NCBI GenBank assembly: GCA_964419615.1
Contig: CAYQPU010000006.1
Location: 15,418 to 54,521 of the forward strand
DNA: 39,104 nucleotides
From: an uncultured Methanosarcinales archaeon
Lineage (GTDB): Archaea > Nanobdellota > Nanobdellia > Woesearchaeales > JAGVZT01
Direction of reading: 5' to 3'
Position numbers and translations under genes: made by a program. Below, one piece after another: positions 29,871 through 38,791 of this stretch. The notes under the pieces were generated by a model that was not told the DNA's origin, made no database searches, and saw only the letters and a program-made list of their open reading frames with translations. Position 1 is the first letter of the stretch, and each line of letters begins with the position of its first letter.

Positions 29871-30671
29871 CTATTTCCCTTCAATAAACTTTTTCATTAC
29901 ATCGACAAATTCATAAGCTTCTTTAAAGTATTTGTCATATTCTGCTCCTGAGATTTCTTTGATTTCTCTGTGAACTATTTTTTTTGACAAAGTATAGAAT
30001 TTACTCATTGTTTTAACATATTTTTTATCTAGTAGTTTATGTTTGACCATTTTTTCATCTAGCATGTCTGCCACATGACCTGGACTTGGTGGAATTTCAT
30101 CAAGCTTCATTAAAGATGCATGTGCAGAATCAATTACTGCCCAATACAAGTCCAAAGTTGCTTGGTTAAGATGCCATTTGGAATTATGAAGTGTTGTTGG
30201 AGCTCTGGTAAAATAAGTCCAAATTGATTCTGGTGATGGTCTGATTCTTCCTTGTAGTAGTAAGAGTTGTAAAGGTCTAAATAGTCCAGTATCTAATAAA
30301 GGGATTCCATCTCTAAGGATGTTTATTCCAACTGGATCTCCTACTCTGACATACTCCCAAAAGGTGCTTAGTTTAAGTGATGTGATATGAAGTTTTGGTG
30401 AGAGATCAGCATTTATTCTTTCAAGAATTATCCTATATGTTTCTGCAACATCTGCTGTTAGAATTAAGCTGACATCATCTACTAATATTAAGATATCAAT
30501 GTCCCCAGTTTTAGTTTCTTTTCTCGCTGTACTTCCGAATAATACAACTGCTTTTAAGAAATCACCAAATTCTTTGTAGATTTTATTTGTAAATTTATAG
30601 GCTAGATCAAGATCATTTTTTTTATGATCTGGTTTTTGACCTACCTGCCTCTTTTGTACTTTAAACTCCAT
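29871..30671 (-). CDS. Minimal nucleotidyltransferase (MNT)-HEPN fusion protein
   Basis: LFGSTAR...GDIDIL Pol-beta motif. C-terminal HEPN helices (LYWAVIDSAHASL, YFKEAYEFV). Confidence 0.8.
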   Translation of the reverse strand: MEFKVQKRQVGQKPDHKKNDLDLAYKFTNKIYKEFGDFLKAVVLFGSTARKETKTGDIDILILVDDVSLILTADVAETYRIILERINADLSPKLHITSLKLSTFWEYVRVGDPVGINILRDGIPLLDTGLFRPLQLLLLQGRIRPSPESIWTYFTRAPTTLHNSKWHLNQATLDLYWAVIDSAHASLMKLDEIPPSPGHVADMLDEKMVKHKLLDKKYVKTMSKFYTLSKKIVHREIKEISGAEYDKYFKEAYEFVDVMKKFIEGK

Positions 30672-30778: not shown

Positions 30779-31660
30779 ATGGAAGATATTGATAAGTATG
30801 AGAAAGCAGGAAAAATTGCTGCTGAAGCTTTAGTTTATGGAAAACAACTAATTCAAAAAGAAAGTTTTCTTTTGGATGTAACCGAAAAGATTGAAGATTT
30901 TGTTAAAAAAAAGGCTGGACTTGCATTTCCAGTTCAGATTGCAATGAATAGTGTGGCTGCTCATTTTTATCCAGATCAGGATGATGAGATAAGATTTGAA
31001 GATCAGGTTTGTAAGTTAGATGTGGGAGTGCATGTTGATGGTTTTGTTGGAGATAATGCTGTTACAGTTGATTTATCTGGAAAGCACTCTGAATTGGTAC
31101 AAGCATCTAGAGAAGCACTGGAAAATGCTATTAAAATTGTCAAACATGGAGTTCAAGTTGGTGAGATAGGTAAAGTTATTCAAGATTCTATTACCAAATA
31201 TGGCTTGGCTCCGGTTAGAAACCTGAGTGGGCATGGGCTTGATGAATATAATGTTCATACTCCACCAAATATTCCCAATACAGCAACAGGTGATACTACC
31301 ACTTTAGATGAAGGTGAAGTGGTTGCTATTGAACCGTTTGCATCGACTGGTGCAGGTATTGTTATTGAGACTAGCAATCCAACTTTGTACCAGATTATTG
31401 AACCAAAGCCAGTCAGGGATAGATCAACAAGGCAGATTCTGGAGCACATTATGAGTTATAACAATTTACCATTTGCTAAGAGATGGTTGATAAAAGAATT
31501 TCCATTGTTTAAGGTTAATTTTGCTTTGAGGAGAATGTTGAATTTGAAGATAATTTCCAGTTTTCCTCCGCTTGTGGACAAGGCAAAGGGTATTGTTAGT
31601 CAGGCAGAGTATAGTGTGCTGGTTGAGAAAGATGGTTGTAGAATATTGACTAAAGCTTAA
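30779..31660 (+). CDS. map: Methionine aminopeptidase type II
   Basis: AAHF, DVGVHVDG..GD, GHG, AIEPF and QAE metal ligands, plus the type II helical insertion. Confidence 0.95.
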   Translation: MEDIDKYEKAGKIAAEALVYGKQLIQKESFLLDVTEKIEDFVKKKAGLAFPVQIAMNSVAAHFYPDQDDEIRFEDQVCKLDVGVHVDGFVGDNAVTVDLSGKHSELVQASREALENAIKIVKHGVQVGEIGKVIQDSITKYGLAPVRNLSGHGLDEYNVHTPPNIPNTATGDTTTLDEGEVVAIEPFASTGAGIVIETSNPTLYQIIEPKPVRDRSTRQILEHIMSYNNLPFAKRWLIKEFPLFKVNFALRRMLNLKIISSFPPLVDKAKGIVSQAEYSVLVEKDGCRILTKA

Positions 31661-32253
31661 CCTGGAGGCTCTTCTCTCTTACATATCTCTAAGTATTCTT
31701 TTGCTAACACACTAAGTTTCTCGTGTGTTAATCTATAACCTTCTTCATCAAAATAACTGCCTTCCATTGAAATGATCCCCATTTTAGTTTGAAATTCAAG
31801 GAGCATATCAGCTCGTTCTTGCTCTGACACATCTAGACTATTATCAGAGTCCCCACACACGACGTATAATCTCTGGAAATCTTCGTTATTAGTAATATCT
31901 TCAACAATGTTCCCGCAACCAGTACCAACATACTCTTCCACCAAAACTCCTAATTCAGTAAAATCAACTGGATTACCAGCTGGATCAGAGTAGAAAACCT
32001 CTTCAACACCAGAGCTTGTTGTCTCAAGCACCAAAGAAAAACCATAAACATCACCAAATTCTTTATAAAAACCATGCATCTCGTACTTTGATACTTCTGT
32101 GTCTTTATTATAATCCCCACAAACTGTTGCAGCTCTGTCTAAAATCGGCATAAATATCTCAACAGGTTCAGGTTCAGAATCACAGCCAACCATACTTGTT
32201 GCAGCAATCATAGCTGCTAGACCAACCAAAGTAAATTGTATTGTTTTATTCAT
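31657..32253 (-). CDS. Lipoprotein with two tandem repeats, each carrying an EF-hand-like loop
   Basis: Lipobox MVGC24; loops DYNKDTEVSKYE (47-58) and DSDNSLDVSEQE (135-146); GGAGG SD. Confidence 0.7.
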   Translation of the reverse strand: MNKTIQFTLVGLAAMIAATSMVGCDSEPEPVEIFMPILDRAATVCGDYNKDTEVSKYEMHGFYKEFGDVYGFSLVLETTSSGVEEVFYSDPAGNPVDFTELGVLVEEYVGTGCGNIVEDITNNEDFQRLYVVCGDSDNSLDVSEQERADMLLEFQTKMGIISMEGSYFDEEGYRLTHEKLSVLAKEYLEICKREEPPG

Positions 32254-33955
32254 TTTCCTCCCTTATTCCCGCATCTTTTTCAGTTTGACCAAACCATTCA
32301 TTAAATCCTTTTTCATATTCTTCTAGCTCTCTTTGCTCAGCAGTAGCCTTTTGTTCATCAATATAAGTGTTTAACTCTGATACTTTTCCTAATGTCACTA
32401 GTTCTTCATTTGGAAATTCTTGTGTAAGACTACCAAGCAGTTCTTTTGCATAATCATAATTTTCTATTCCTGTTGCAAGTTCTGCTAATGTGTAGTATGC
32501 TTGAGCAGCCCAATATTTTTGAAAAGGTTCATAACCTGTGGTAAGTGCTATTGATTCTTCTAGATGGCCAGCAACTGCTATAACATCTTCATACTCAAAA
32601 ACAGCACCTTCCTGATCCCAACCCATATCCTTTAACATAAGGTGAGCAATAGAATAGTGTGCAATTGAAGCTCTGAATGGATTTCCATGTGCACTTGCAC
32701 GGTAAATGTCAACTATCTCATCTTGATCAATTGCATATGCTCCTACCAAATCTTCAGGTAGTCTTAGTACACTTATTTTGTCTTCTTCTGCAACTGACAA
32801 AAGTTCAGCTTGTCCTGCATAAATGCTTGCTAAAACATAATTCATCTTAAATGCAAGATTTGTTCCAGGTGCTTGTTTGATTATATCCTTGATCCACTCT
32901 TCTGTTAGATCATGTGCATTTTTGGGATTGTGGTATTGTTGAACATTAAAATTGTCAATAACCAAATCTAATAGGTTTTTAGTTGACCATGCGCTTATTT
33001 TTGGATAATCTAACAACAATGTTGTTTGTTCATCTACAATCTCTTCTGCAGAGAATAAATTTTGATTAAAGTATTTTGTAATATAGATTTCATATTGTGA
33101 ACTGTATGCTTCAACAGTTCCCGGATGCATGAGTATAATCTGCTGAAAAGCATCAATTTTTTCAGATAACAGTTCAGGATCAATTGTTGTCCCCTGATTG
33201 TCCATGCTATCTGGCATGTTCATTGCTTCAACATATAGATAATTTGCTTCATCGGAATTAGGAAGGATTTGATAATCTACGCTAATAACTTTACTGTTTA
33301 TTCCAAGTGTTATTGCTTCTGTTATAGGTGGGAGTTCTTCAGAAGGTTGTGCTGCTAGTATTTGATCATATACTGGTCTCATGAAGTCCCTTCTGCTGTT
33401 AGCATAAATGCTCTCGCTCCTTATTCCAGCATATAACCAAGCTACTCCAATTAAGCAAGAACTCATAACTATCCAACCTAAAGTGCCAAATATTTTTGAT
33501 CTGACTCCTTGTTTAACACTATCTGAGTGATGGAAATCATTTGAAACATTGCTCTTAACATTTTCTCTATTTTGTTTTTTAATCTCTGATTCAATTAGTT
33601 TTTTTACTCGGTTACCATAGCCCGCTAGATCATTTGGTGATGATTTTCCTGATATCACAGAAGCTATGAAACTTGTAATGTCTTTTGGAGTGATATCTGA
33701 GTTCAATAGAGTTTGCAGAACTTCTGATCTTCTGCCCATTGAAAATACATACTGCCTGATTAGAAGGTCGCCAAATTCGTCTCTAGTTGTTACATCTCTT
33801 AGTTGCCTATAAAATTCTGGATCAGGATCTTTTGCTATTCTGTTAGCTAGTATTAAAAGAGCAGGGTGATTAACAAGTTCATCAATTGTTTGATCTCCTG
33901 GTTCATATAACGCATTTGACATTGCTACAATATCTTTTATTGCTGGATCACTCAT
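32246..33955 (-). CDS. Single-pass membrane protein with a cytoplasmic N-domain and extracellular TPR-like repeats
   Basis: TM IFGTLGWIVMSSCLIGVAWLYAG; TPR-like helices (AYSSQYEI, AFKMNYVLASIY, AQAYYTLAEL...NYDYAKELL); ATGA overlap. Confidence 0.72.
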   Translation of the reverse strand: MSDPAIKDIVAMSNALYEPGDQTIDELVNHPALLILANRIAKDPDPEFYRQLRDVTTRDEFGDLLIRQYVFSMGRRSEVLQTLLNSDITPKDITSFIASVISGKSSPNDLAGYGNRVKKLIESEIKKQNRENVKSNVSNDFHHSDSVKQGVRSKIFGTLGWIVMSSCLIGVAWLYAGIRSESIYANSRRDFMRPVYDQILAAQPSEELPPITEAITLGINSKVISVDYQILPNSDEANYLYVEAMNMPDSMDNQGTTIDPELLSEKIDAFQQIILMHPGTVEAYSSQYEIYITKYFNQNLFSAEEIVDEQTTLLLDYPKISAWSTKNLLDLVIDNFNVQQYHNPKNAHDLTEEWIKDIIKQAPGTNLAFKMNYVLASIYAGQAELLSVAEEDKISVLRLPEDLVGAYAIDQDEIVDIYRASAHGNPFRASIAHYSIAHLMLKDMGWDQEGAVFEYEDVIAVAGHLEESIALTTGYEPFQKYWAAQAYYTLAELATGIENYDYAKELLGSLTQEFPNEELVTLGKVSELNTYIDEQKATAEQRELEEYEKGFNEWFGQTEKDAGIREENE

Positions 33956-34785
33956 TTTAGGATCTCCTCCAACACAGTTTTATAATCAAAGGATACGGGA
34001 TCAATACCAATTTCATCAACAAACTCCTCTAAACCTTGGTCTACAAGACCAGGTACATTGACATCCAATTCTTTTTCCAAGTATTCACCAAGAGTTTGAT
34101 CCAAATGATCTGGGATTTCAACACTATATTCCACCCTAACATGTTCCATATATTGTCTTTGATCTGCTAATTGATCTTGGTAAAAGACAAGTCCATTAAA
34201 GAGAGCTATTGCTAATACTCCTGCAATAACAATGGTTCCTAAAACTCTTGGAAATCTACTCCTTCCTCTGATTCTCTTCTTTACTTCCCTGTTTTCATTA
34301 TATTTGTCATGATAATTTCCTAGTAATTCTTCCTCATATTTTGCTTTAAAACCTAACTTAAGTTTCTCAATTAAGTTATCAGTTTGTTTTTTTATTTGTC
34401 TTGATGGAATTGCAGAGAAATATATTGATGCCGCTTTAACAAGATTTGAATCTAGAGTCCTTTCAGATCTATCCATTGCAGCTTCAATCTCTGCTCTGAC
34501 ATTCTCATCTGCAGCGGTATTAATAAACATATCAGCAATCAATAGCTTTGAGTAATCTTGCATGCTCTCAAGTTTATGCAAGTATTTTTCATCTTGAGAT
34601 GTTGTTAATAATGACAACAAACGTCTAGTTGTGTATAATTTTGTTGCTGAAATTGCTTCAAATGGAGTGATGTCTCTTAAATCATCTTCCTCTATCTCTT
34701 CAGGAGGTGTCATCAGTAAATCAAAGAAGTCGTCTACATCTTGCTTTGTTTTGTCTGCAACTCTTGTTCCTGTGTTTGGACCCAT
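33952..34785 (-). CDS. Single-pass (type II) membrane protein of unknown function
   Basis: Basic KKRIRGRSRFPR followed by TM VLGTIVIAGVLAIALFNGLVFY; GGAGG SD; abuts the E1 stop. Confidence 0.72.
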   Translation of the reverse strand: MGPNTGTRVADKTKQDVDDFFDLLMTPPEEIEEDDLRDITPFEAISATKLYTTRRLLSLLTTSQDEKYLHKLESMQDYSKLLIADMFINTAADENVRAEIEAAMDRSERTLDSNLVKAASIYFSAIPSRQIKKQTDNLIEKLKLGFKAKYEEELLGNYHDKYNENREVKKRIRGRSRFPRVLGTIVIAGVLAIALFNGLVFYQDQLADQRQYMEHVRVEYSVEIPDHLDQTLGEYLEKELDVNVPGLVDQGLEEFVDEIGIDPVSFDYKTVLEEILK

Positions 34786-36189
34786 TTATTTTCCTCCAAA
34801 ATGATTGCATTTGTAGTCTGCTTGAATAAAAGCTACTCTGTTAGGTCTTTTGCTACTGTAATCAAAATATCCTCTTGGCATTGGTAAACCAGCTGCCCAT
34901 CTATCAAACAAACTCAGCATTGCATTAGCCCCTATCATGTTTGTTGTACCTACAGAGGGATCGGGTTCTTCAATGCACCCAGCAGGCACATGATCTCTTT
35001 CTGCTAGTTCACTAATATTAAAGACCTCTTCAAGACAAGCAGTTTCACCTGGAACTGCTGCATAAGCTTCACTAGATTTTGCTGTTGAAGTTGCATAAAA
35101 TAAAGGAATATTAATATTATGTTTAGTTGCTGTGTCATTTAACAGGTTGGATAAAGGATGTGAGTCTCCACATCTAAAAATTGCATCTGGAATCTTTCCT
35201 TTAAACTTTCCTTCAAAGTACTCATCATATGCTCTGATTTTTGTTTTCCCATATTTTCTCAAGATTTTAGCTGTTGTGGAAGCTTTTGGAAGACCAATAC
35301 AATCATCAAGCAAAGATATTTCAAAAAGTCTATTTAAGTTAAGTTCTTCATATTCATCTTTATCCCAAAGTCTTACTTCTTTTACTCCTCTTTGGATTAA
35401 TCCTATAGCTACAGGTAATCCAAGTCCACTAACTCCAATAACATCCACTACCAAATCATAGTTTGGAACAGGAGCTTCATGGTCATCCTCATAACCAACA
35501 AAAACATCTGATAAGAAGTTTACATGGACTGTTTCCTCTGACTTTGTCTCACCAGGTAAAGGAATAACAAGTTTTCTTACCATGTCTCCAACAACTCCTC
35601 CAATTAAACCAGCAATTACTGGATCTTGGGGTTGTTTTCTATACCCTGGGGAAAGTTGTCCATAAGTGACAATATCAGCACCCCTTGATCTTTTGGGTAA
35701 TATTATTTTTGCTTCTCCTGTCCATTTCATTGCAGAAGCATTGACCATTGGAATATTTCTTGAATGACAGTATTTTATTAGTAAAGATTCTAGGATTGGA
35801 TTATTTGTTGCATCAACAATAACAGCATGATCAGATACACCTTTATTATCAAGCAATGCAAAATCTCCTCCATCCAAATTCCAAATAGTGCCCATTTTTG
35901 TATTTAGATAATTATGCATTATATCAGGACTGCTTCTTTTAAGAATATCTTCAAGTATTTCTACTTTAAAGGTGCCTGGTGCAGCCCCATGATAGATGAA
36001 CTCATCTGCATTGAATCTTCTATAGATTGCATTATCATAGATATCAATATCTGAAAATCCAAGCATTGATAGAGCTCTAAGTGTTTGAATTGCTAAGGGT
36101 TCAGAACCAAACACACCAATTGAAGCCTCGTAAAGCTTGGACTGATCCCACCCGTCAATTGCTTGTTGTCTTAGATATCTATCACTCAT
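34786..36189 (-). CDS. E1-like ubiquitin/Ubl-activating enzyme with tandem ThiF domains (inactive then active adenylation domain)
   Basis: Domain 1: DRYLRQ..IDGWDQSKL with degenerate GSEPLA. Domain 2: IGVSGLG, DKDEYEELNLNR, PKA, and AGC405IEEPDPSVGTT as candidate catalytic Cys. Confidence 0.85.
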   Translation of the reverse strand: MSDRYLRQQAIDGWDQSKLYEASIGVFGSEPLAIQTLRALSMLGFSDIDIYDNAIYRRFNADEFIYHGAAPGTFKVEILEDILKRSSPDIMHNYLNTKMGTIWNLDGGDFALLDNKGVSDHAVIVDATNNPILESLLIKYCHSRNIPMVNASAMKWTGEAKIILPKRSRGADIVTYGQLSPGYRKQPQDPVIAGLIGGVVGDMVRKLVIPLPGETKSEETVHVNFLSDVFVGYEDDHEAPVPNYDLVVDVIGVSGLGLPVAIGLIQRGVKEVRLWDKDEYEELNLNRLFEISLLDDCIGLPKASTTAKILRKYGKTKIRAYDEYFEGKFKGKIPDAIFRCGDSHPLSNLLNDTATKHNINIPLFYATSTAKSSEAYAAVPGETACLEEVFNISELAERDHVPAGCIEEPDPSVGTTNMIGANAMLSLFDRWAAGLPMPRGYFDYSSKRPNRVAFIQADYKCNHFGGK

Positions 36190-36195
36190 GTATTA

Positions 36196-37344
36196 TCACT
36201 TTAGATTACCTTTTGTTGGTCTATCTCTCCACCATTCCAAAAAGGTGGAAAATAATGCTCCAATCAGAGTTTGGTGTTCAGTTGATTTCACACTAACTGG
36301 TTTTGGAGTCTTTTCAACAACTTCTTTCTCTGGTTCATCTTCTTCATCTACACCAGTTTGTTGTTTTCTTCTAACTCTCCTTGGAGGTCTTAGTGGTTCA
36401 ACAATGTTTTTCATAACATCATATCTCATTTCTTCATCATCAACAATGACATCACCTTCAACATCATGCCAAACTTTTGTTGGCAATCCCCTTCCAGTAG
36501 GTCCAGTTAACAATTCAATTCTTCCAGGTACACCATTAATGTATTCTCTGACAAGTGCTTCAGCATAGATATGTCTACAGTAACCTCCTTCGGAAGTACC
36601 ATCTAGTTTCAATAACTGCTCCTCTCCAATACCTGTACAAATTATACTGATTATGTATTGAAGTTCAATTGTTTGATAGTCAGTTAATTCCTTAATCCCT
36701 GGGCCATTTACAAAATAGTCTTTTACAATCTCCAATAATTCACTTTGTTCTTCCAAGGAAACATCAAATTGTTCCGAGTGCATTCCAAGAGAATTAAGTA
36801 TTGGTTCTAATGGAATACCCATTTTTGTATCTGTTAATAGATCAGACAGCATTAAATATCCTTTACTTTCATCATAAACACAATCAAGATTATTCATTGT
36901 TACTTCTTTAAAGCCCAGAATTTTATTTTGAGGCCTTTTGTACAATATCCTATAGTTTTGTGGCCTATCACCATCTGCGTGATTTGATGGACTAAGTGAG
37001 TGAAATCTTGGATGAAAATGACCCCATCCATCCACAACTACATTTTCAGGATTGTCAGTAGGAAATTCAGCAGCTGCATTACCCAGCCATTCCACGCTAC
37101 CACCTGATGCTTCGTAGTGTTTTGGTATGAATATATCTCTTTTTAGTCCTTCATCACTGATTCTCAAAGGCAAAAAACATGCTTCCTTTCTTCCAAGTTC
37201 TTCTTCTACATGGTGATACATGCTTGTTATTTTTCTAATACAACCAGCTGATATGTCTAATCTATCTACTGAAGGAGTATTATAGTTTACAACTACATCA
37301 CCACTACCGATAGCCATTAATTCTCCAACGATTTCATCTCCCAT
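36196..37344 (-). CDS. JAB/MPN+ (JAMM) metalloprotease, deubiquitinase-like
   Basis: E54 and GWGH109FH111P...PS120NHAD124; a large insertion before the last strand (YIISIIC); acidic tail with a terminal amphipathic helix. Confidence 0.8.
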   Translation of the reverse strand: MGDEIVGELMAIGSGDVVVNYNTPSVDRLDISAGCIRKITSMYHHVEEELGRKEACFLPLRISDEGLKRDIFIPKHYEASGGSVEWLGNAAAEFPTDNPENVVVDGWGHFHPRFHSLSPSNHADGDRPQNYRILYKRPQNKILGFKEVTMNNLDCVYDESKGYLMLSDLLTDTKMGIPLEPILNSLGMHSEQFDVSLEEQSELLEIVKDYFVNGPGIKELTDYQTIELQYIISIICTGIGEEQLLKLDGTSEGGYCRHIYAEALVREYINGVPGRIELLTGPTGRGLPTKVWHDVEGDVIVDDEEMRYDVMKNIVEPLRPPRRVRRKQQTGVDEEDEPEKEVVEKTPKPVSVKSTEHQTLIGALFSTFLEWWRDRPTKGNLK

Positions 37345-37600
37345 TATGCTCTCCTCTCATTTGTTATTGGACAAACTTTTTCAACTTCTTCTTTTGTCCA
37401 TCCTTTAAATTTTTTAAATTCATCTTCTGGAAAATTTGCCCAAGTTAATTTTAAATGTGGATGCACTTTTCCAAAATATCCGTGCCTCAATATATTTACA
37501 CCATAGTGAAGATAATCCACAATTCGCTCTTCAGGTGTTGGTAATTTTGATTTGTAACTATTTGTACATATTGGACTATCCGTTCCAAAATCCCCTGTAA
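37344..37600 (-). pseudogene. 3' remnant of an E2-like (UBC-fold) gene, 5'-truncated at a junction
   Basis: ...GTDSPIC(37566-68)TNSYKSKLPTPEERIVDYLHYGVNILRHGY resembles IC-LDIL..W..I..VL..I..LL. The stop is coupled to JAB (TAATG). There is no in-frame start before the frame runs antisense to the Nudix gene. Confidence 0.5.
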
Positions 37601-37707
37601 AAGCGTGTTTATAATGGTCGTGTACAAAAGGTGAATTCGAGTGATGAATTGCGTGAAACGATGTATGCTTATACTTCTCAACAACAAGGTGCAGAGATAA
37701 TAATACT

Positions 37708-38127
37708 ATGAGATTCAAAAATGCTAGACACAGGAAAGCTGCGTTTGCTAATATGCGTAATAGAACCTCTGCTCGAGGCATAGTTAAACGCAAGAATAAA
37801 TATTTGTTAGTAAGAAGGCTGGATGGTAGGTATGAGTTCCCTGGAGGTAAGACAGATGGTGAACATCCTAAAAAAGCATTGGAACGTGAGATGAAAGAAG
37901 AAACAAACTTAAACATCAAAGATCCAGAACATATTAAAACACTATATAGTAAAGAAGGGTACTGGACTAGGTTTTATAAAACAAAAGCAAACGGTAAAAT
38001 CAAGCTCCAACCTGAAGAACTCAATGAATACAGATATGTTACAACTAAAGAAAGCAAGAAACTAAGAATGACCCGTCCCTCAAGACGGATGTTAAATGTG
38101 CTCAAAAAAGAGGATAAAAATGGTTAA
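37708..38127 (+). CDS. Nudix hydrolase with a basic N-terminal extension
   Basis: Nudix box GGKTDGEHPKKALEREMKEETNL (Gx5Ex7RExxEE). Confidence 0.92.
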   Translation: MRFKNARHRKAAFANMRNRTSARGIVKRKNKYLLVRRLDGRYEFPGGKTDGEHPKKALEREMKEETNLNIKDPEHIKTLYSKEGYWTRFYKTKANGKIKLQPEELNEYRYVTTKESKKLRMTRPSRRMLNVLKKEDKNG

Positions 38128-38791
38128 AAGAAAATTTAAATCAAATAAACAACGTAGAGCAGTGATGGCTAAACTCAACCCAGGACGCGGTATGAGGAAA
38201 GGCAAGCACACCTATAAGAGCATCTGGGAAGGTGACTGGGATGCTGATAAAGTACCTAATATAGACGACAAATACCCGTTCGATAAGAGCAGGACAGAAC
38301 CTGTCAATAAAGATATCAGCCTCTCAGAAGCTTGGGGCAGCCTGCAGTTGAGACGCGCGATCTATAACAAGAATATCAAGAAGATTGCGGGCGCGATCGG
38401 GTCCAAGAAGTACAGGGTCAAGCAGCACTATAGCGCGATCAATAAGCAGATGACTCGCTACATAGATAATATCGAGGACATGGGTGGGCTCACTGTCTAT
38501 GCCAATACCAGGCTAGAGCTCGAGCTGGCAGTGATGAAGCTCAAACGTATGTTCAAGGGCAAGATCCAGGACTATGATAACAAGTACCAGGTAGCGCTTG
38601 ATAAGAAACGGGCATATATGGCACACCATTTCACTATCATCGACCAGGGTCTGCCGTACGAGATCCAGGTCAAGACCAAGAAGATGGCTGCATTACACAC
38701 AAAGATGCACGCGGATTATAAGAAATACGGGCCTGCGTACGTGAAAAAATATACAGAAGAAGCGTTCAGGCTCTACAGTCTCGGCTATTAA
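38120..38791 (+). CDS. RelA/SpoT-domain small alarmone synthetase-like nucleotidyltransferase
   Basis: RVKQHYSAINK (Syn1), EDMGG (Syn2), YMAHH (Syn3) and EIQVKT (Syn4). GAGGA SD before ATG38120, which overlaps the Nudix stop. Confidence 0.78.
   Translation: MVKRKFKSNKQRRAVMAKLNPGRGMRKGKHTYKSIWEGDWDADKVPNIDDKYPFDKSRTEPVNKDISLSEAWGSLQLRRAIYNKNIKKIAGAIGSKKYRVKQHYSAINKQMTRYIDNIEDMGGLTVYANTRLELELAVMKLKRMFKGKIQDYDNKYQVALDKKRAYMAHHFTIIDQGLPYEIQVKTKKMAALHTKMHADYKKYGPAYVKKYTEEAFRLYSLGY

What the first reader, a model, noticed from the sequence alone, without database searches (positions are those of the whole stretch)
34786..36189. Eukaryote-style E1: inactive and active adenylation domains in one chain with a minimal Cys loop
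Seen in sequence: the N-terminal ThiF domain keeps the DRYLRQ Arg finger but its GxGxxG is degenerate (GSEPLA). The second domain keeps the nucleotide motifs (IGVSGLG, DxDxYExxNLNR, KA) and a lone Cys405 in AGCIEEPDPSVGTT. The Zn motifs are reduced (TACLEE and terminal CNH). Established: the inactive+active pseudo-dimer is the layout of Uba1-type E1s and type II BilD. Inference: a compact prokaryotic model of the fused E1. The Gly-to-Ser in the second P-loop could reduce activity.
Basis: partly seen in the sequence, partly recalled or inferred. Interest (0 to 1): 0.7.

Follow-up and report, generated by a model that had tools for sequence, protein, structure and literature searches.

The report
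Two-domain E1 in truncated archaeal cassette
This gene of a small DPANN-type archaeon encodes a ubiquitin-activating-type enzyme built, like eukaryotic ones, from a dead and a live copy of one domain in a single chain, but with its reactive cysteine on a short loop. The family is widespread and unnamed, yet this copy sits in a cassette that has lost its tag protein and most of its E2, so it is probably decaying or re-purposed.

Summary
Window 34786-36189 (minus strand) encodes a 467-aa protein with two ThiF-type halves. An AlphaFold model (pLDDT 93.6) aligns over its whole length to single-chain eukaryotic E1s (UBA6: Z 34, 433 residues) and to bacterial BilD (Z 31.7).

In 56 full-length relatives the C-half nucleotide-site residues and Cys405 are invariant. 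The N-half has lost the P-loop and the catalytic Arg. The crossover segment is 29-39 residues in all 56, so none has a Cys domain.

The family is patchy in this phylum (about 55 of 401 genomes). It sits in cassettes ordered small GG-ended beta-grasp-like protein, E2-like, JAMM peptidase, E1. That is the BilABCD gene order.

This copy is atypical:
- its cassette has no Ubl gene;
- only the last ~100 aa of the E2 remain;
- the JAMM motif has an odd Ser-Asp spacing;
- the E1 alone among the 56 carries G254S and Q288L.

A complete paralogous cassette lies on another contig of the same genome. This scan already followed up that paralog (e1-5105006) and reached the same family-level reading.

Verdict: a new variant of a known kind, namely an IAD-AAD E1 without a Cys domain, in archaea. 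Here it is probably an impaired or orphaned copy.

The parts
34786..36189 (-). E1-like gene, 467 aa (P0001): N-terminal inactive ThiF half, linker, C-terminal active ThiF half
35560..36189 (-). Inactive adenylation domain (about residues 1-210). It holds the RYxRQ helix (R7 aligns to MoeB R14) and the degenerate P-loop GSEPLA. No Arg occurs at the R287-equivalent column in any of 56 relatives.
36166..36183 (-). DRYLRQ, the candidate Arg-finger helix (R7 in 53/56, Q8 in 52/56)
34789..35454 (-). Active adenylation domain (residues 246-467) with G252, D276, D278, N284, R287, K302 and D342
35419..35439 (-). C-half P-loop IGVSGLG. Ser254 replaces a Gly present in 55/56 relatives.
35326..35364 (-). 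DKDEYEELNLNRL: DxD...NLNR is kept, but Leu288 replaces a Gln present in 55/56 relatives
34951..35052 (-). Crossover segment (residues 380-413, 34 aa). It has one remaining Zn Cys (C385; position 388 is Glu) and the invariant Cys405. The pLDDT dip to 66 falls here.
34975..34977 (-). Cys405 codon, the candidate thioester nucleophile (56/56 and 22/22 conserved)
34801..34809 (-). C-terminal CNH, a remnant of the family's CxC Zn pair
36196..37344 (-). JAMM/MPN-like peptidase gene (382 aa). It has Glu and HxH, but a 3-residue insert (NHA) between the motif Ser and Asp. No Pfam hit.
37350..37655 (-). Remnant of the E2-like gene: only the last ~100 aa, 51% identical to residues 345-442 of the 448-aa ortholog. 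It reads HAF...IC instead of HPF...IC. Further upstream the frame runs antisense into the Nudix gene.
33952..34785 (-). 277-aa single-pass membrane protein, co-conserved with the E1 in the orthologous cassette (249 aa in L003)
32246..33955 (-). 569-aa single-pass membrane protein (the ortholog has weak TPR hits), co-conserved with the E1
31657..32253 (-). 198-aa lipoprotein-like last gene of the operon. It has no detectable homology to the 135-aa last gene of L003.

Best explanation
The gene encodes a single-chain E1 of an unnamed family found mainly in DPANN (Woesearchaeota-like) archaea.

Architecture. An N-terminal ThiF-type domain has lost its nucleotide site but keeps the RYxRQ helix. [quoted passage not shown]

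Inferred family mechanism:
1. The neighbouring JAMM peptidase trims the tail of a small beta-grasp-like protein to expose Gly-Gly.
2. The active half, with Arg7 supplied by the dead half, adenylates that Gly.
3. Cys405 on the short mobile crossover loop takes the protein as a thioester.
4. It is passed to the Cys of the upstream E2-like protein (HPF...C), and from there to unknown targets.

The layout is that of Uba1-type E1s and BilD. The cysteine, however, sits on the loop as in MoeB/ThiF/UBA5-type enzymes, with no Cys domain and no UFD.

This copy. It is stranded: its cassette has lost the Ubl gene and three quarters of the E2 gene, its JAMM motif is irregular, and the E1 alone in the family carries G254S and Q288L in the ATP site. 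I judge it about 55% likely that adenylation is impaired, making this a decaying or re-purposed copy. The complete paralogous cassette on contig C4 would then be the working system. I put the architecture and family assignment at about 0.9.
For: Two ThiF halves: Pfam gives two stretches at E 6e-28, and NCBIfam hits 4-201 and 248-405.

Fold: the AF2 model has pLDDT 93.6 and pTM 0.94. Residues 1-467 align to UBA6 (Z 34.0, rmsd 3.0, 433 aa), to Uba1 and UBA7, and to BilD 8tyz_A (Z 31.7, 379 aa). Single-domain ThiF, UBA3 and SAE2 cover only 238-467 (Z ~25).

Asymmetric conservation in 56 relatives:
- G252, D276, N284, R287, K302, D342 and C405 are invariant.
- The N-half has 0/56 Arg at the R287-equivalent column.
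- The N-half's third P-loop Gly is mostly Ala.

Crossover loop: the segment is 29-39 aa in all 56. The crossover profile matches UBA3 on both sides of UBA3's ~80-aa Cys domain, which here is a ~15-aa loop with the invariant Cys.

History: N-halves and C-halves each form one group (100/99 and 97/96) with congruent topologies, so the fusion predates the sampled radiation.

Cassette: the order small GG-plus-tail protein, HPF..C protein, JAMM, E1 recurs in most of 20 loci.

Ubl: the model's top hits are all beta-grasp Ubls, though weak.

This copy:
- The E2 is reduced to residues 345-442.
- The genome has no second Ubl.
- The JAMM motif is the only one failing S..D.
- G254S and Q288L are unique among 56 and 149 relatives.
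- It shows 7 deviations at 39 conserved columns against a median of 2.
- Its branches are longer than its sister's in both halves: 0.62 vs 0.34 and 0.69 vs 0.45.
Against: All five genes of the truncated operon are intact ORFs in a 34% GC genome. The same arrangement, with an identical E1, occurs on two metagenome contigs from other samples. The E2 remnant has no stop codon and is still 51% identical to its ortholog. These facts fit a recent truncation or continued use.

GVSGLG still has Gly at positions 1, 4 and 6, so the loop might tolerate the Ser. All other invariant residues, including Cys405 and Arg7, are kept.

No activity, expression or complex data exist. The position of Cys405 relative to the active site was not measured. 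The E2 fold is not shown: there is no Pfam or PDB sequence hit, only an Atlas lead. The Ubl fold matches are weak (E >= 0.03, Z <= 5.4).
Confidence: 0.6

Rival explanations
1. The window E1 is fully functional and works in trans with the only Ubl and full-length E2 of the genome, those of the paralogous cassette on contig C4. It would couple them to its own membrane-protein partners.
For: The ORF is intact and all invariant residues other than G254 and Q288 are kept. The genome encodes exactly one Ubl and one complete E2. The truncated arrangement is stable across samples.
Against: The two E1 paralogs share only 29% identity. They fall in different subfamilies with different downstream partners. 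The unique ATP-site substitutions and the irregular JAMM motif argue for relaxed constraint.
Confidence: 0.25
2. The E1, the JAMM protein and the membrane proteins form an E2-independent module. In it the E1 adenylates the C-terminus of some other protein, for example a partner or its own ...GGK tail.
For: The 277-aa and 569-aa membrane proteins are co-conserved with this E1 subfamily. The E1 ends in HFGGK.
Against: The orthologous cassette with the same membrane partners still has the Ubl and a full E2. The ortholog's C-terminus has no GG, so the tail is not conserved.
Confidence: 0.08
3. It is a MoeB/ThiF-type sulfur-carrier or cofactor adenylyltransferase with a duplicated domain and is unrelated to protein conjugation.
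For: The best single-sequence PDB hits are ThiF and MoeB. The N-half profile is closest to MoeB.
Against: NCBIfam scores are far below the curated cut-offs, e.g. 78 against 275 bits for ThiF. The family is consistently linked to JAMM, HPF..C and GG-ended proteins. The genome has a separate single-domain ThiF-like gene on C49.
Confidence: 0.03

Closest known systems
BilD, the E1 of bacterial Type II BilABCD operons (Ensifer aridi; PDB 8TYZ/8TZ0; bioRxiv 10.1101/2023.09.26.559546)
   Same: Single chain with an N-terminal IAD and a C-terminal AAD. An Arg is supplied by the IAD N-terminus (Arg9 in BilD, Arg7 here). No FCCH and no UFD. The Zn site uses two crossover Cys and two C-terminal Cys (true of the family consensus here). 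The gene order is Ubl-E2-JAMM-E1, with a Ubl that carries a tail after the conserved Gly. The whole model aligns at Z 31.7 over 379 aa.
   Different: BilD has an ~80-aa helical CYS domain inserted in the crossover loop; here the loop is 29-39 aa with the Cys on it. BilD's IAD is Pfam PF14459, which finds nothing in this genome, whereas this N-half is still recognisably ThiF/MoeB-like. BilD is not among the 60 best sequence matches of the family profile. The E2 carries HPF...C rather than the CEHH motif. The hosts are archaeal. This copy lacks the Ubl and most of the E2.
Canonical eukaryotic E1s (Uba1, UBA6, UBA7; heterodimeric NAE1-UBA3 and SAE1-SAE2)
   Same: IAD-AAD pseudo-dimer. 433 of 467 residues superpose on UBA6 at Z 34. 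The AAD motifs are shared. The segment PLIxGGT...PGxTxCxxC and the re-entry PSV...N helix match UBA3 and SAE2 best (E 7e-8).
   Different: No FCCH/SCCH Cys domain and no UFD, at less than half the length. The N-half is no closer to eukaryotic IADs (NAE1 3e-14, SAE1 5e-12) than to MoeB (1.9e-25).
Homodimeric E1-like enzymes with a crossover-loop nucleophile (E. coli ThiF Cys184, MoeB, human UBA5 Cys250, BubCD Tyr370)
   Same: The nucleophile sits on a short flexible crossover loop just before the PSV-type helix. The CxxC...CxxC-type Zn site is shared. Cys405 aligns 5 residues downstream of the column holding ThiF C184, MoeB C187 and BubCD Y370.
   Different: Those enzymes are homodimers with two active sites; here the second protomer is a fused, dead domain. 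The Cys column is not strictly the same.
Caldiarchaeum subterraneum / Asgard E1-like enzymes of archaeal Ub-E1-E2-RING operons (PMC5654768)
   Same: Archaeal. They act with a JAMM peptidase that trims a pro-ubiquitin to GG, and with an E2-like protein.
   Different: Those are described as UBA3-like, with a Cys-containing domain and a C-terminal UBL domain, and they work with a RING E3. No RING gene was seen in these cassettes. I made no direct sequence comparison.

Membership tests
ThiF/MoeB/E1 adenylation superfamily (Pfam PF00899) | Rossmann-type domain matching the ThiF profile above the gathering score | tested here: met
   98 bits against a 28.1 cut-off, two stretches
ThiF/MoeB/E1 adenylation superfamily (Pfam PF00899) | Nucleotide-site residues: GxGxxG, Asp after beta2, NxxR, Lys, and the Mg-binding Asp | tested here: inconclusive
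   In the C-half, D276, N284, R287, K302 and D342 are present and invariant in the family. The P-loop, however, is G-V-S-G-L-G (G254S), and Q288 is Leu; both changes are unique to this copy.
Canonical (Uba1-type) E1 | Inactive plus active adenylation domains forming a pseudo-dimer | tested here: met
   The AF2 model (pLDDT 93.6) aligns over residues 1-467 to UBA6, Uba1 and UBA7 at Z 32-34. The N-half lacks the P-loop and the Arg.
Canonical (Uba1-type) E1 | Catalytic Cys carried on a helical Cys domain (SCCH/CYS) inserted in the crossover loop | tested here: not met
   The crossover segment is 34 aa here and 29-39 aa in 56 relatives. The UBA3 alignment skips its residues 200-279.
Canonical (Uba1-type) E1 | C-terminal ubiquitin-fold domain for E2 recruitment | tested here: not met
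   The chain ends at residue 467, just after the last AAD strands (E440-445, E452-456), with no further domain.
Type II BilD | N-terminal domain belonging to Pfam PF14459 (Prok-E2_C) | tested here: not met
   No PF14459 match in the whole genome at E <= 1. Pfam finds only ThiF on the protein.
Type II BilD | About 80-aa alpha-helical CYS insertion with the catalytic Cys | tested here: not met
Type II BilD | Structural Zn bound by two crossover Cys and two C-terminal Cys | tested here: inconclusive
   Family consensus is CxxC plus CxC (53, 45, 49 and 43 of 56). This copy has C385, E388, C461 and H463.
BilABCD-type operon | Ubl - E2 - JAMM DUB - E1 encoded together | tested here: not met
   Met by family members and by the paralog on C4. 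In the window the Ubl is absent and the E2 is a ~100-aa remnant.
BilABCD-type operon | Anti-phage function with Ubl conjugation to targets | not testable with these tools
   Only indirect signs: patchy, multi-copy distribution, and neighbours of defence-island type.
Non-canonical homodimeric E1 (UBA5/ThiF/MoeB type) | Nucleophile on the crossover loop itself | tested here: met
   Cys405 is invariant, 11-20 residues after the second Zn position and 6 residues before the PSV helix.
Non-canonical homodimeric E1 (UBA5/ThiF/MoeB type) | Homodimer of two active adenylation domains | tested here: not met
   The partner domain is fused and lacks the P-loop and the Arg.

The most novel reading that the evidence does not exclude
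This DPANN family preserves a stage of E1 evolution not seen in characterised systems. In it, duplication and fusion into an inactive-active pseudo-dimer has already happened, but the catalytic Cys still sits on the bare crossover loop, before any Cys domain or UFD was acquired. On this reading it is a living intermediate between MoeB-type homodimers and Uba1/BilD-type E1s, with a crossover region closest to UBA3 and SAE2. It would show that pseudo-dimerisation and Cys-domain insertion were separable steps.
Probability: 0.25. Interest if true: 0.8.

Novelty: new variant of a known kind. Interest (0 to 1): 0.55.

Why it matters
Until BilD was solved, the fused inactive-active E1 was regarded as a eukaryotic hallmark. 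This family shows the same layout in archaea, combined with the loop-borne cysteine of the simplest E1-like enzymes, in a protein of about 460 aa.

A complete member, such as the C4 paralog or the L003 ortholog, would be a minimal system for two questions: what the dead domain contributes, and whether a Cys domain is needed for E1-to-E2 transfer.

The window copy adds a natural experiment. It is a cassette that lost its Ubl and E2 and whose remaining E1 and JAMM genes carry changes at otherwise invariant catalytic positions. The cassettes themselves appear to be undescribed in the papers I could search.

Tried and rejected
- Plus-strand reading of the coordinates: full of stops.
- PADLOC: only weak CBASS Cap2 'E1-E2' hits on the C-half (E >= 9e-6), so this is not a Cap2.
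- The search for homologous proteins with the protein and with the profile: few hits, because generic ThiF words saturate the candidate list.
- The listing of cluster members: gave only one named relative, a Candidatus Woesearchaeota ThiF-family protein.
- tblastn of the E1 against phage and plasmid collections: no match at 1e-5.
- E2-like domain: no Pfam hit, no PDB sequence hit with a 13-sequence profile, and PF14460 absent from the genome. Only an Atlas lead remains: Prok-E2_D clusters at 0.91, and UQ_con models at TM 0.54-0.55 on residues ~272-448 of a poor model.
- Atlas search for the Ubl: noise.
- Recent internal duplication: rejected. The N-half profile scores its own C-halves (median 53 bits) no better than MoeB (93 bits).
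- Selection test from population data: impossible, because the other contigs differ by 1 base in 7.6 kb.
- Distance from Cys405 to the active site: not measurable, because model coordinates are not exposed.
- Literature searches for DPANN or Woesearchaeota ubiquitin-like systems: nothing relevant found.

Full report
**What is there.** The coordinates hold one ORF on the minus strand (34786..36189, ATG, 467 aa). The plus strand is closed. Pfam ThiF matches with two stretches (E 6.1e-28). NCBIfam MoeB/ThiF models hit residues 4-201 and 248-405 separately, all far below their curated cut-offs. So the protein is two ThiF-type domains in one chain and is not an ordinary MoeB or ThiF.

**Fold.** I used 149 relatives from an exhaustive HMMER search: 497 proteins at E <= 1e-3, 137 at <= 1e-10, and about 100 of them full-length two-domain proteins. 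With these as the alignment, AlphaFold2 gives pLDDT 93.6 and pTM 0.94. The only soft spot in the body of the chain is residues 401-410 (mean pLDDT 66), the loop that carries Cys405.

The whole model (1-467) aligns to single-chain eukaryotic E1s:
- UBA6: Z 34.0, rmsd 3.0, 433 residues, spanning chain 40-958.
- Uba1 and UBA7: Z 32-34.
- Bacterial BilD (8tyz_A): Z 31.7, 379 residues.

ThiF, UBA3 and SAE2 cover only 238-467 (Z about 25). The pseudo-dimer layout is therefore supported, at the level of a confident prediction.

**The halves are not equally degenerate.** In 56 full-length relatives the invariant columns are G28, G252, D276, N284, R287, K302, D342 and C405. Column counts show the following:
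- The C-half P-loop glycines are 56/56, 55/56 and 53/56.
- In the N-half the second Gly is kept in 26/56 and the third is mostly Ala.
- No N-half sequence has Arg at the R287-equivalent column.
- The N-terminal RYxRQ helix is kept (R7 in 53/56, Q8 in 52/56).

R7 aligns to MoeB R14, which I know as MoeB's trans-acting arginine. BilD uses Arg9 of its IAD in the same way.

**The Cys loop.** Cys405 is invariant in 56/56 relatives, and in 22/22 genome-derived relatives. The crossover segment (P380 to G414) is 29-39 residues in all 56, so no member has an ~80-aa Cys domain.

A profile of this region finds UBA3 (E 7e-8) and SAE2 as its best solved relatives, and the alignment is split. Profile positions 1-32 (PLIxGGT...PGxTxCxxC) match UBA3 168-199. 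Positions 48-84 (PSV...N helix) match UBA3 280-314. The intervening UBA3 Cys domain corresponds here to about 15 residues holding the invariant Cys.

Against E. coli ThiF and MoeB, Cys405 lies five columns after ThiF C184 and MoeB C187. BubCD's catalytic Tyr370 falls in that same upstream column. So Cys405 is on the same loop but not in the identical column. Whether the thiol faces the adenylate could not be measured, because coordinates are not exposed.

**History of the two halves.** The N-half profile is closest to MoeB (1.9e-25), ThiF and Uba4. Eukaryotic IADs score lower (NAE1 3e-14, SAE1 5e-12). The N-half is no closer to its own C-halves (median 53 bits) than to MoeB (93 bits).

I built a tree of 22 N-halves, 22 C-halves, E. 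coli MoeB and ThiF, and the genome's single-domain ThiF. Each set comes out as one group (100/99, 97/96, 99/97) and the N and C topologies are congruent. The fusion therefore predates the sampled radiation. Eukaryotic and BilD sequences could not be included.

**Context of the family.** The ortholog (P0003, 49% identity, a Candidatus Woesearchaeota record) sits in a cassette of seven genes: 205 aa, 448 aa, 384 aa, E1, 249 aa, 587 aa and 135 aa.

Across 20 further loci from genomes of the same phylum the recurrent order has four parts:
- A small protein of 127-225 aa whose conserved core ends ...LEIxVxAvqqGG, followed by a tail of 0-20 residues.
- A 430-616 aa protein with invariant H-P-F...C.
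- A JAMM peptidase.
- The E1.

This is the Ubl-E2-DUB-E1 order of BilABCD, whose Ubl also carries a tail removed by the JAMM enzyme.

A model of the small protein has pLDDT 74, with its core at 86-92. It finds only beta-grasp Ubls among its top hits (Atg8, SUMO, ubiquitin, MoaD, SAMP1, BilA), but weakly (Foldseek E >= 0.03; VIA Z <= 5.4). The E2 assignment rests on the motif, the gene position and an Atlas lead. No Pfam or PDB sequence match was found.

In 401 sampled genomes of the phylum, about 55 have a strong two-domain-type match (best E <= 1e-60), and some have 2-4 copies. A same-genus genome has only a single-domain match. Downstream partners differ by subfamily.

**What is special about this copy.**
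- The frame upstream of the JAMM gene matches only residues 345-442 of the 448-aa E2-like ortholog (51% identity). It then runs antisense into a Nudix gene.
- The genome has one Ubl and one full E2, both in a complete paralogous cassette on contig C4: Ubl 155 aa ending GGR, E2-like 506 aa, Prok-JAB 511 aa, E1 472 aa (29% identical), a 292-aa protein and a Ser/Thr kinase.
- The window JAMM protein keeps Glu and HxH but has a 3-residue insert between the motif Ser and Asp. It is the only one that fails H.H.{6,9}S..D.
- The E1 is the only one of 56 (and of 149) with Ser at G254 and Leu at Q288. It has 7 departures at 39 conserved columns, against a median of 2.
- Its branches are 1.5-1.8 times longer than its sister's in both halves.

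These point to relaxed constraint after loss of the Ubl and E2.

Against that reading, all five genes are open. The remnant has no stop codon. The same arrangement, with an identical E1, is found on two contigs from other samples. The truncation may therefore be recent, or the remaining genes may still be used, perhaps with the C4 Ubl and E2.

**Comparison with known systems.**
- It works like an E1 of the BilD/Uba1 layout. It fails the BilD and Uba1 membership tests on the Cys domain, on the UFD (Uba1), and on PF14459 (BilD).
- BilD is not among the family profile's 60 best sequence matches. Those are led by Uba1, UBA6, SAE2, UBA3, MoeB and ThiF at nearly equal scores.
- It shares the loop-borne nucleophile with ThiF, MoeB, UBA5 and BubCD, but it is not a homodimer of active domains.

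I found no paper describing such cassettes in DPANN archaea. The library does not cover all journals.

**Earlier notes of this scan.** Earlier follow-ups of this scan (e1-5105006, e1-5105005) reached the same family-level reading from the C4 paralog. I reproduced it independently here. New in this report are the second, truncated cassette with membrane-protein partners and the unique catalytic-site changes.

**Verdict.** This is a new variant of a known kind. The architecture and family assignment I put at about 0.9. That this copy is impaired or orphaned I put at about 0.55.

Noticed in passing
window 37708-38791 (+): A Nudix hydrolase (139 aa) overlaps a small RelA/SpoT-type synthetase (231 aa). 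The pair abuts the point where the E2-like gene is cut off, and the junction is identical on metagenome contig L054.
   Followed up: partly
window 29871-30671 (-): A 266-aa nucleotidyltransferase (NTP_transf_2 / Polbeta) has PADLOC candidate-system hits (PDC-S09, E 2.8e-9). This suggests a defence-island-like neighbourhood.
   Followed up: no
L009 (G000:C4:38000-54000): The complete paralogous cassette (Ubl 155 aa GGR, E2-like 506 aa, Prok-JAB 511 aa, E1 472 aa, a 292-aa protein, a Ser/Thr kinase of 464 aa) is embedded among NAD-salvage genes: NAPRTase, NAD synthase, Nudix and a cytidylyltransferase-like protein. The 292-aa protein, the kinase and the 198-aa protein recur together in L041 and L043.
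   Followed up: partly
G194:C1:1112876-1114375, also G207:C32, G036:C4, G113:C14, G236:C107, G373: A subfamily of ~520-565-aa frames matches the E1 profile in two pieces (about 16-314 and 309-452). This points to an insertion of ~50 residues in the active half after about position 314.
   Followed up: no
L045, L047-L051 downstream of the E1: A family of large proteins (547-1069 aa) follows the E1 in one clade, sometimes in tandem copies. It shares homology with the ~250-285-aa downstream proteins of L038-L040.
   Followed up: no
window 34786-34800 (-): The E1 ends ...HFGGK, a Gly-Gly plus one residue like the Ubl precursors. The closest ortholog lacks this, so it is probably coincidence.
   Followed up: partly
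window E1 residue 347 and relatives P0003, P0004, P0006-P0008: The Arg five residues after the Mg-binding Asp (D342...R347, Arg in 48/56) is Ser or Thr in the whole clade that includes the window E1 and its complete-cassette ortholog. This loss is clade-wide, not specific to this copy.
   Followed up: partly
window 30779-31660 (+): An M24 metallopeptidase (methionine-aminopeptidase type, 293 aa) converges on the 3' end of the operon, overlapping the lipoprotein gene by 4 bases.
   Followed up: no
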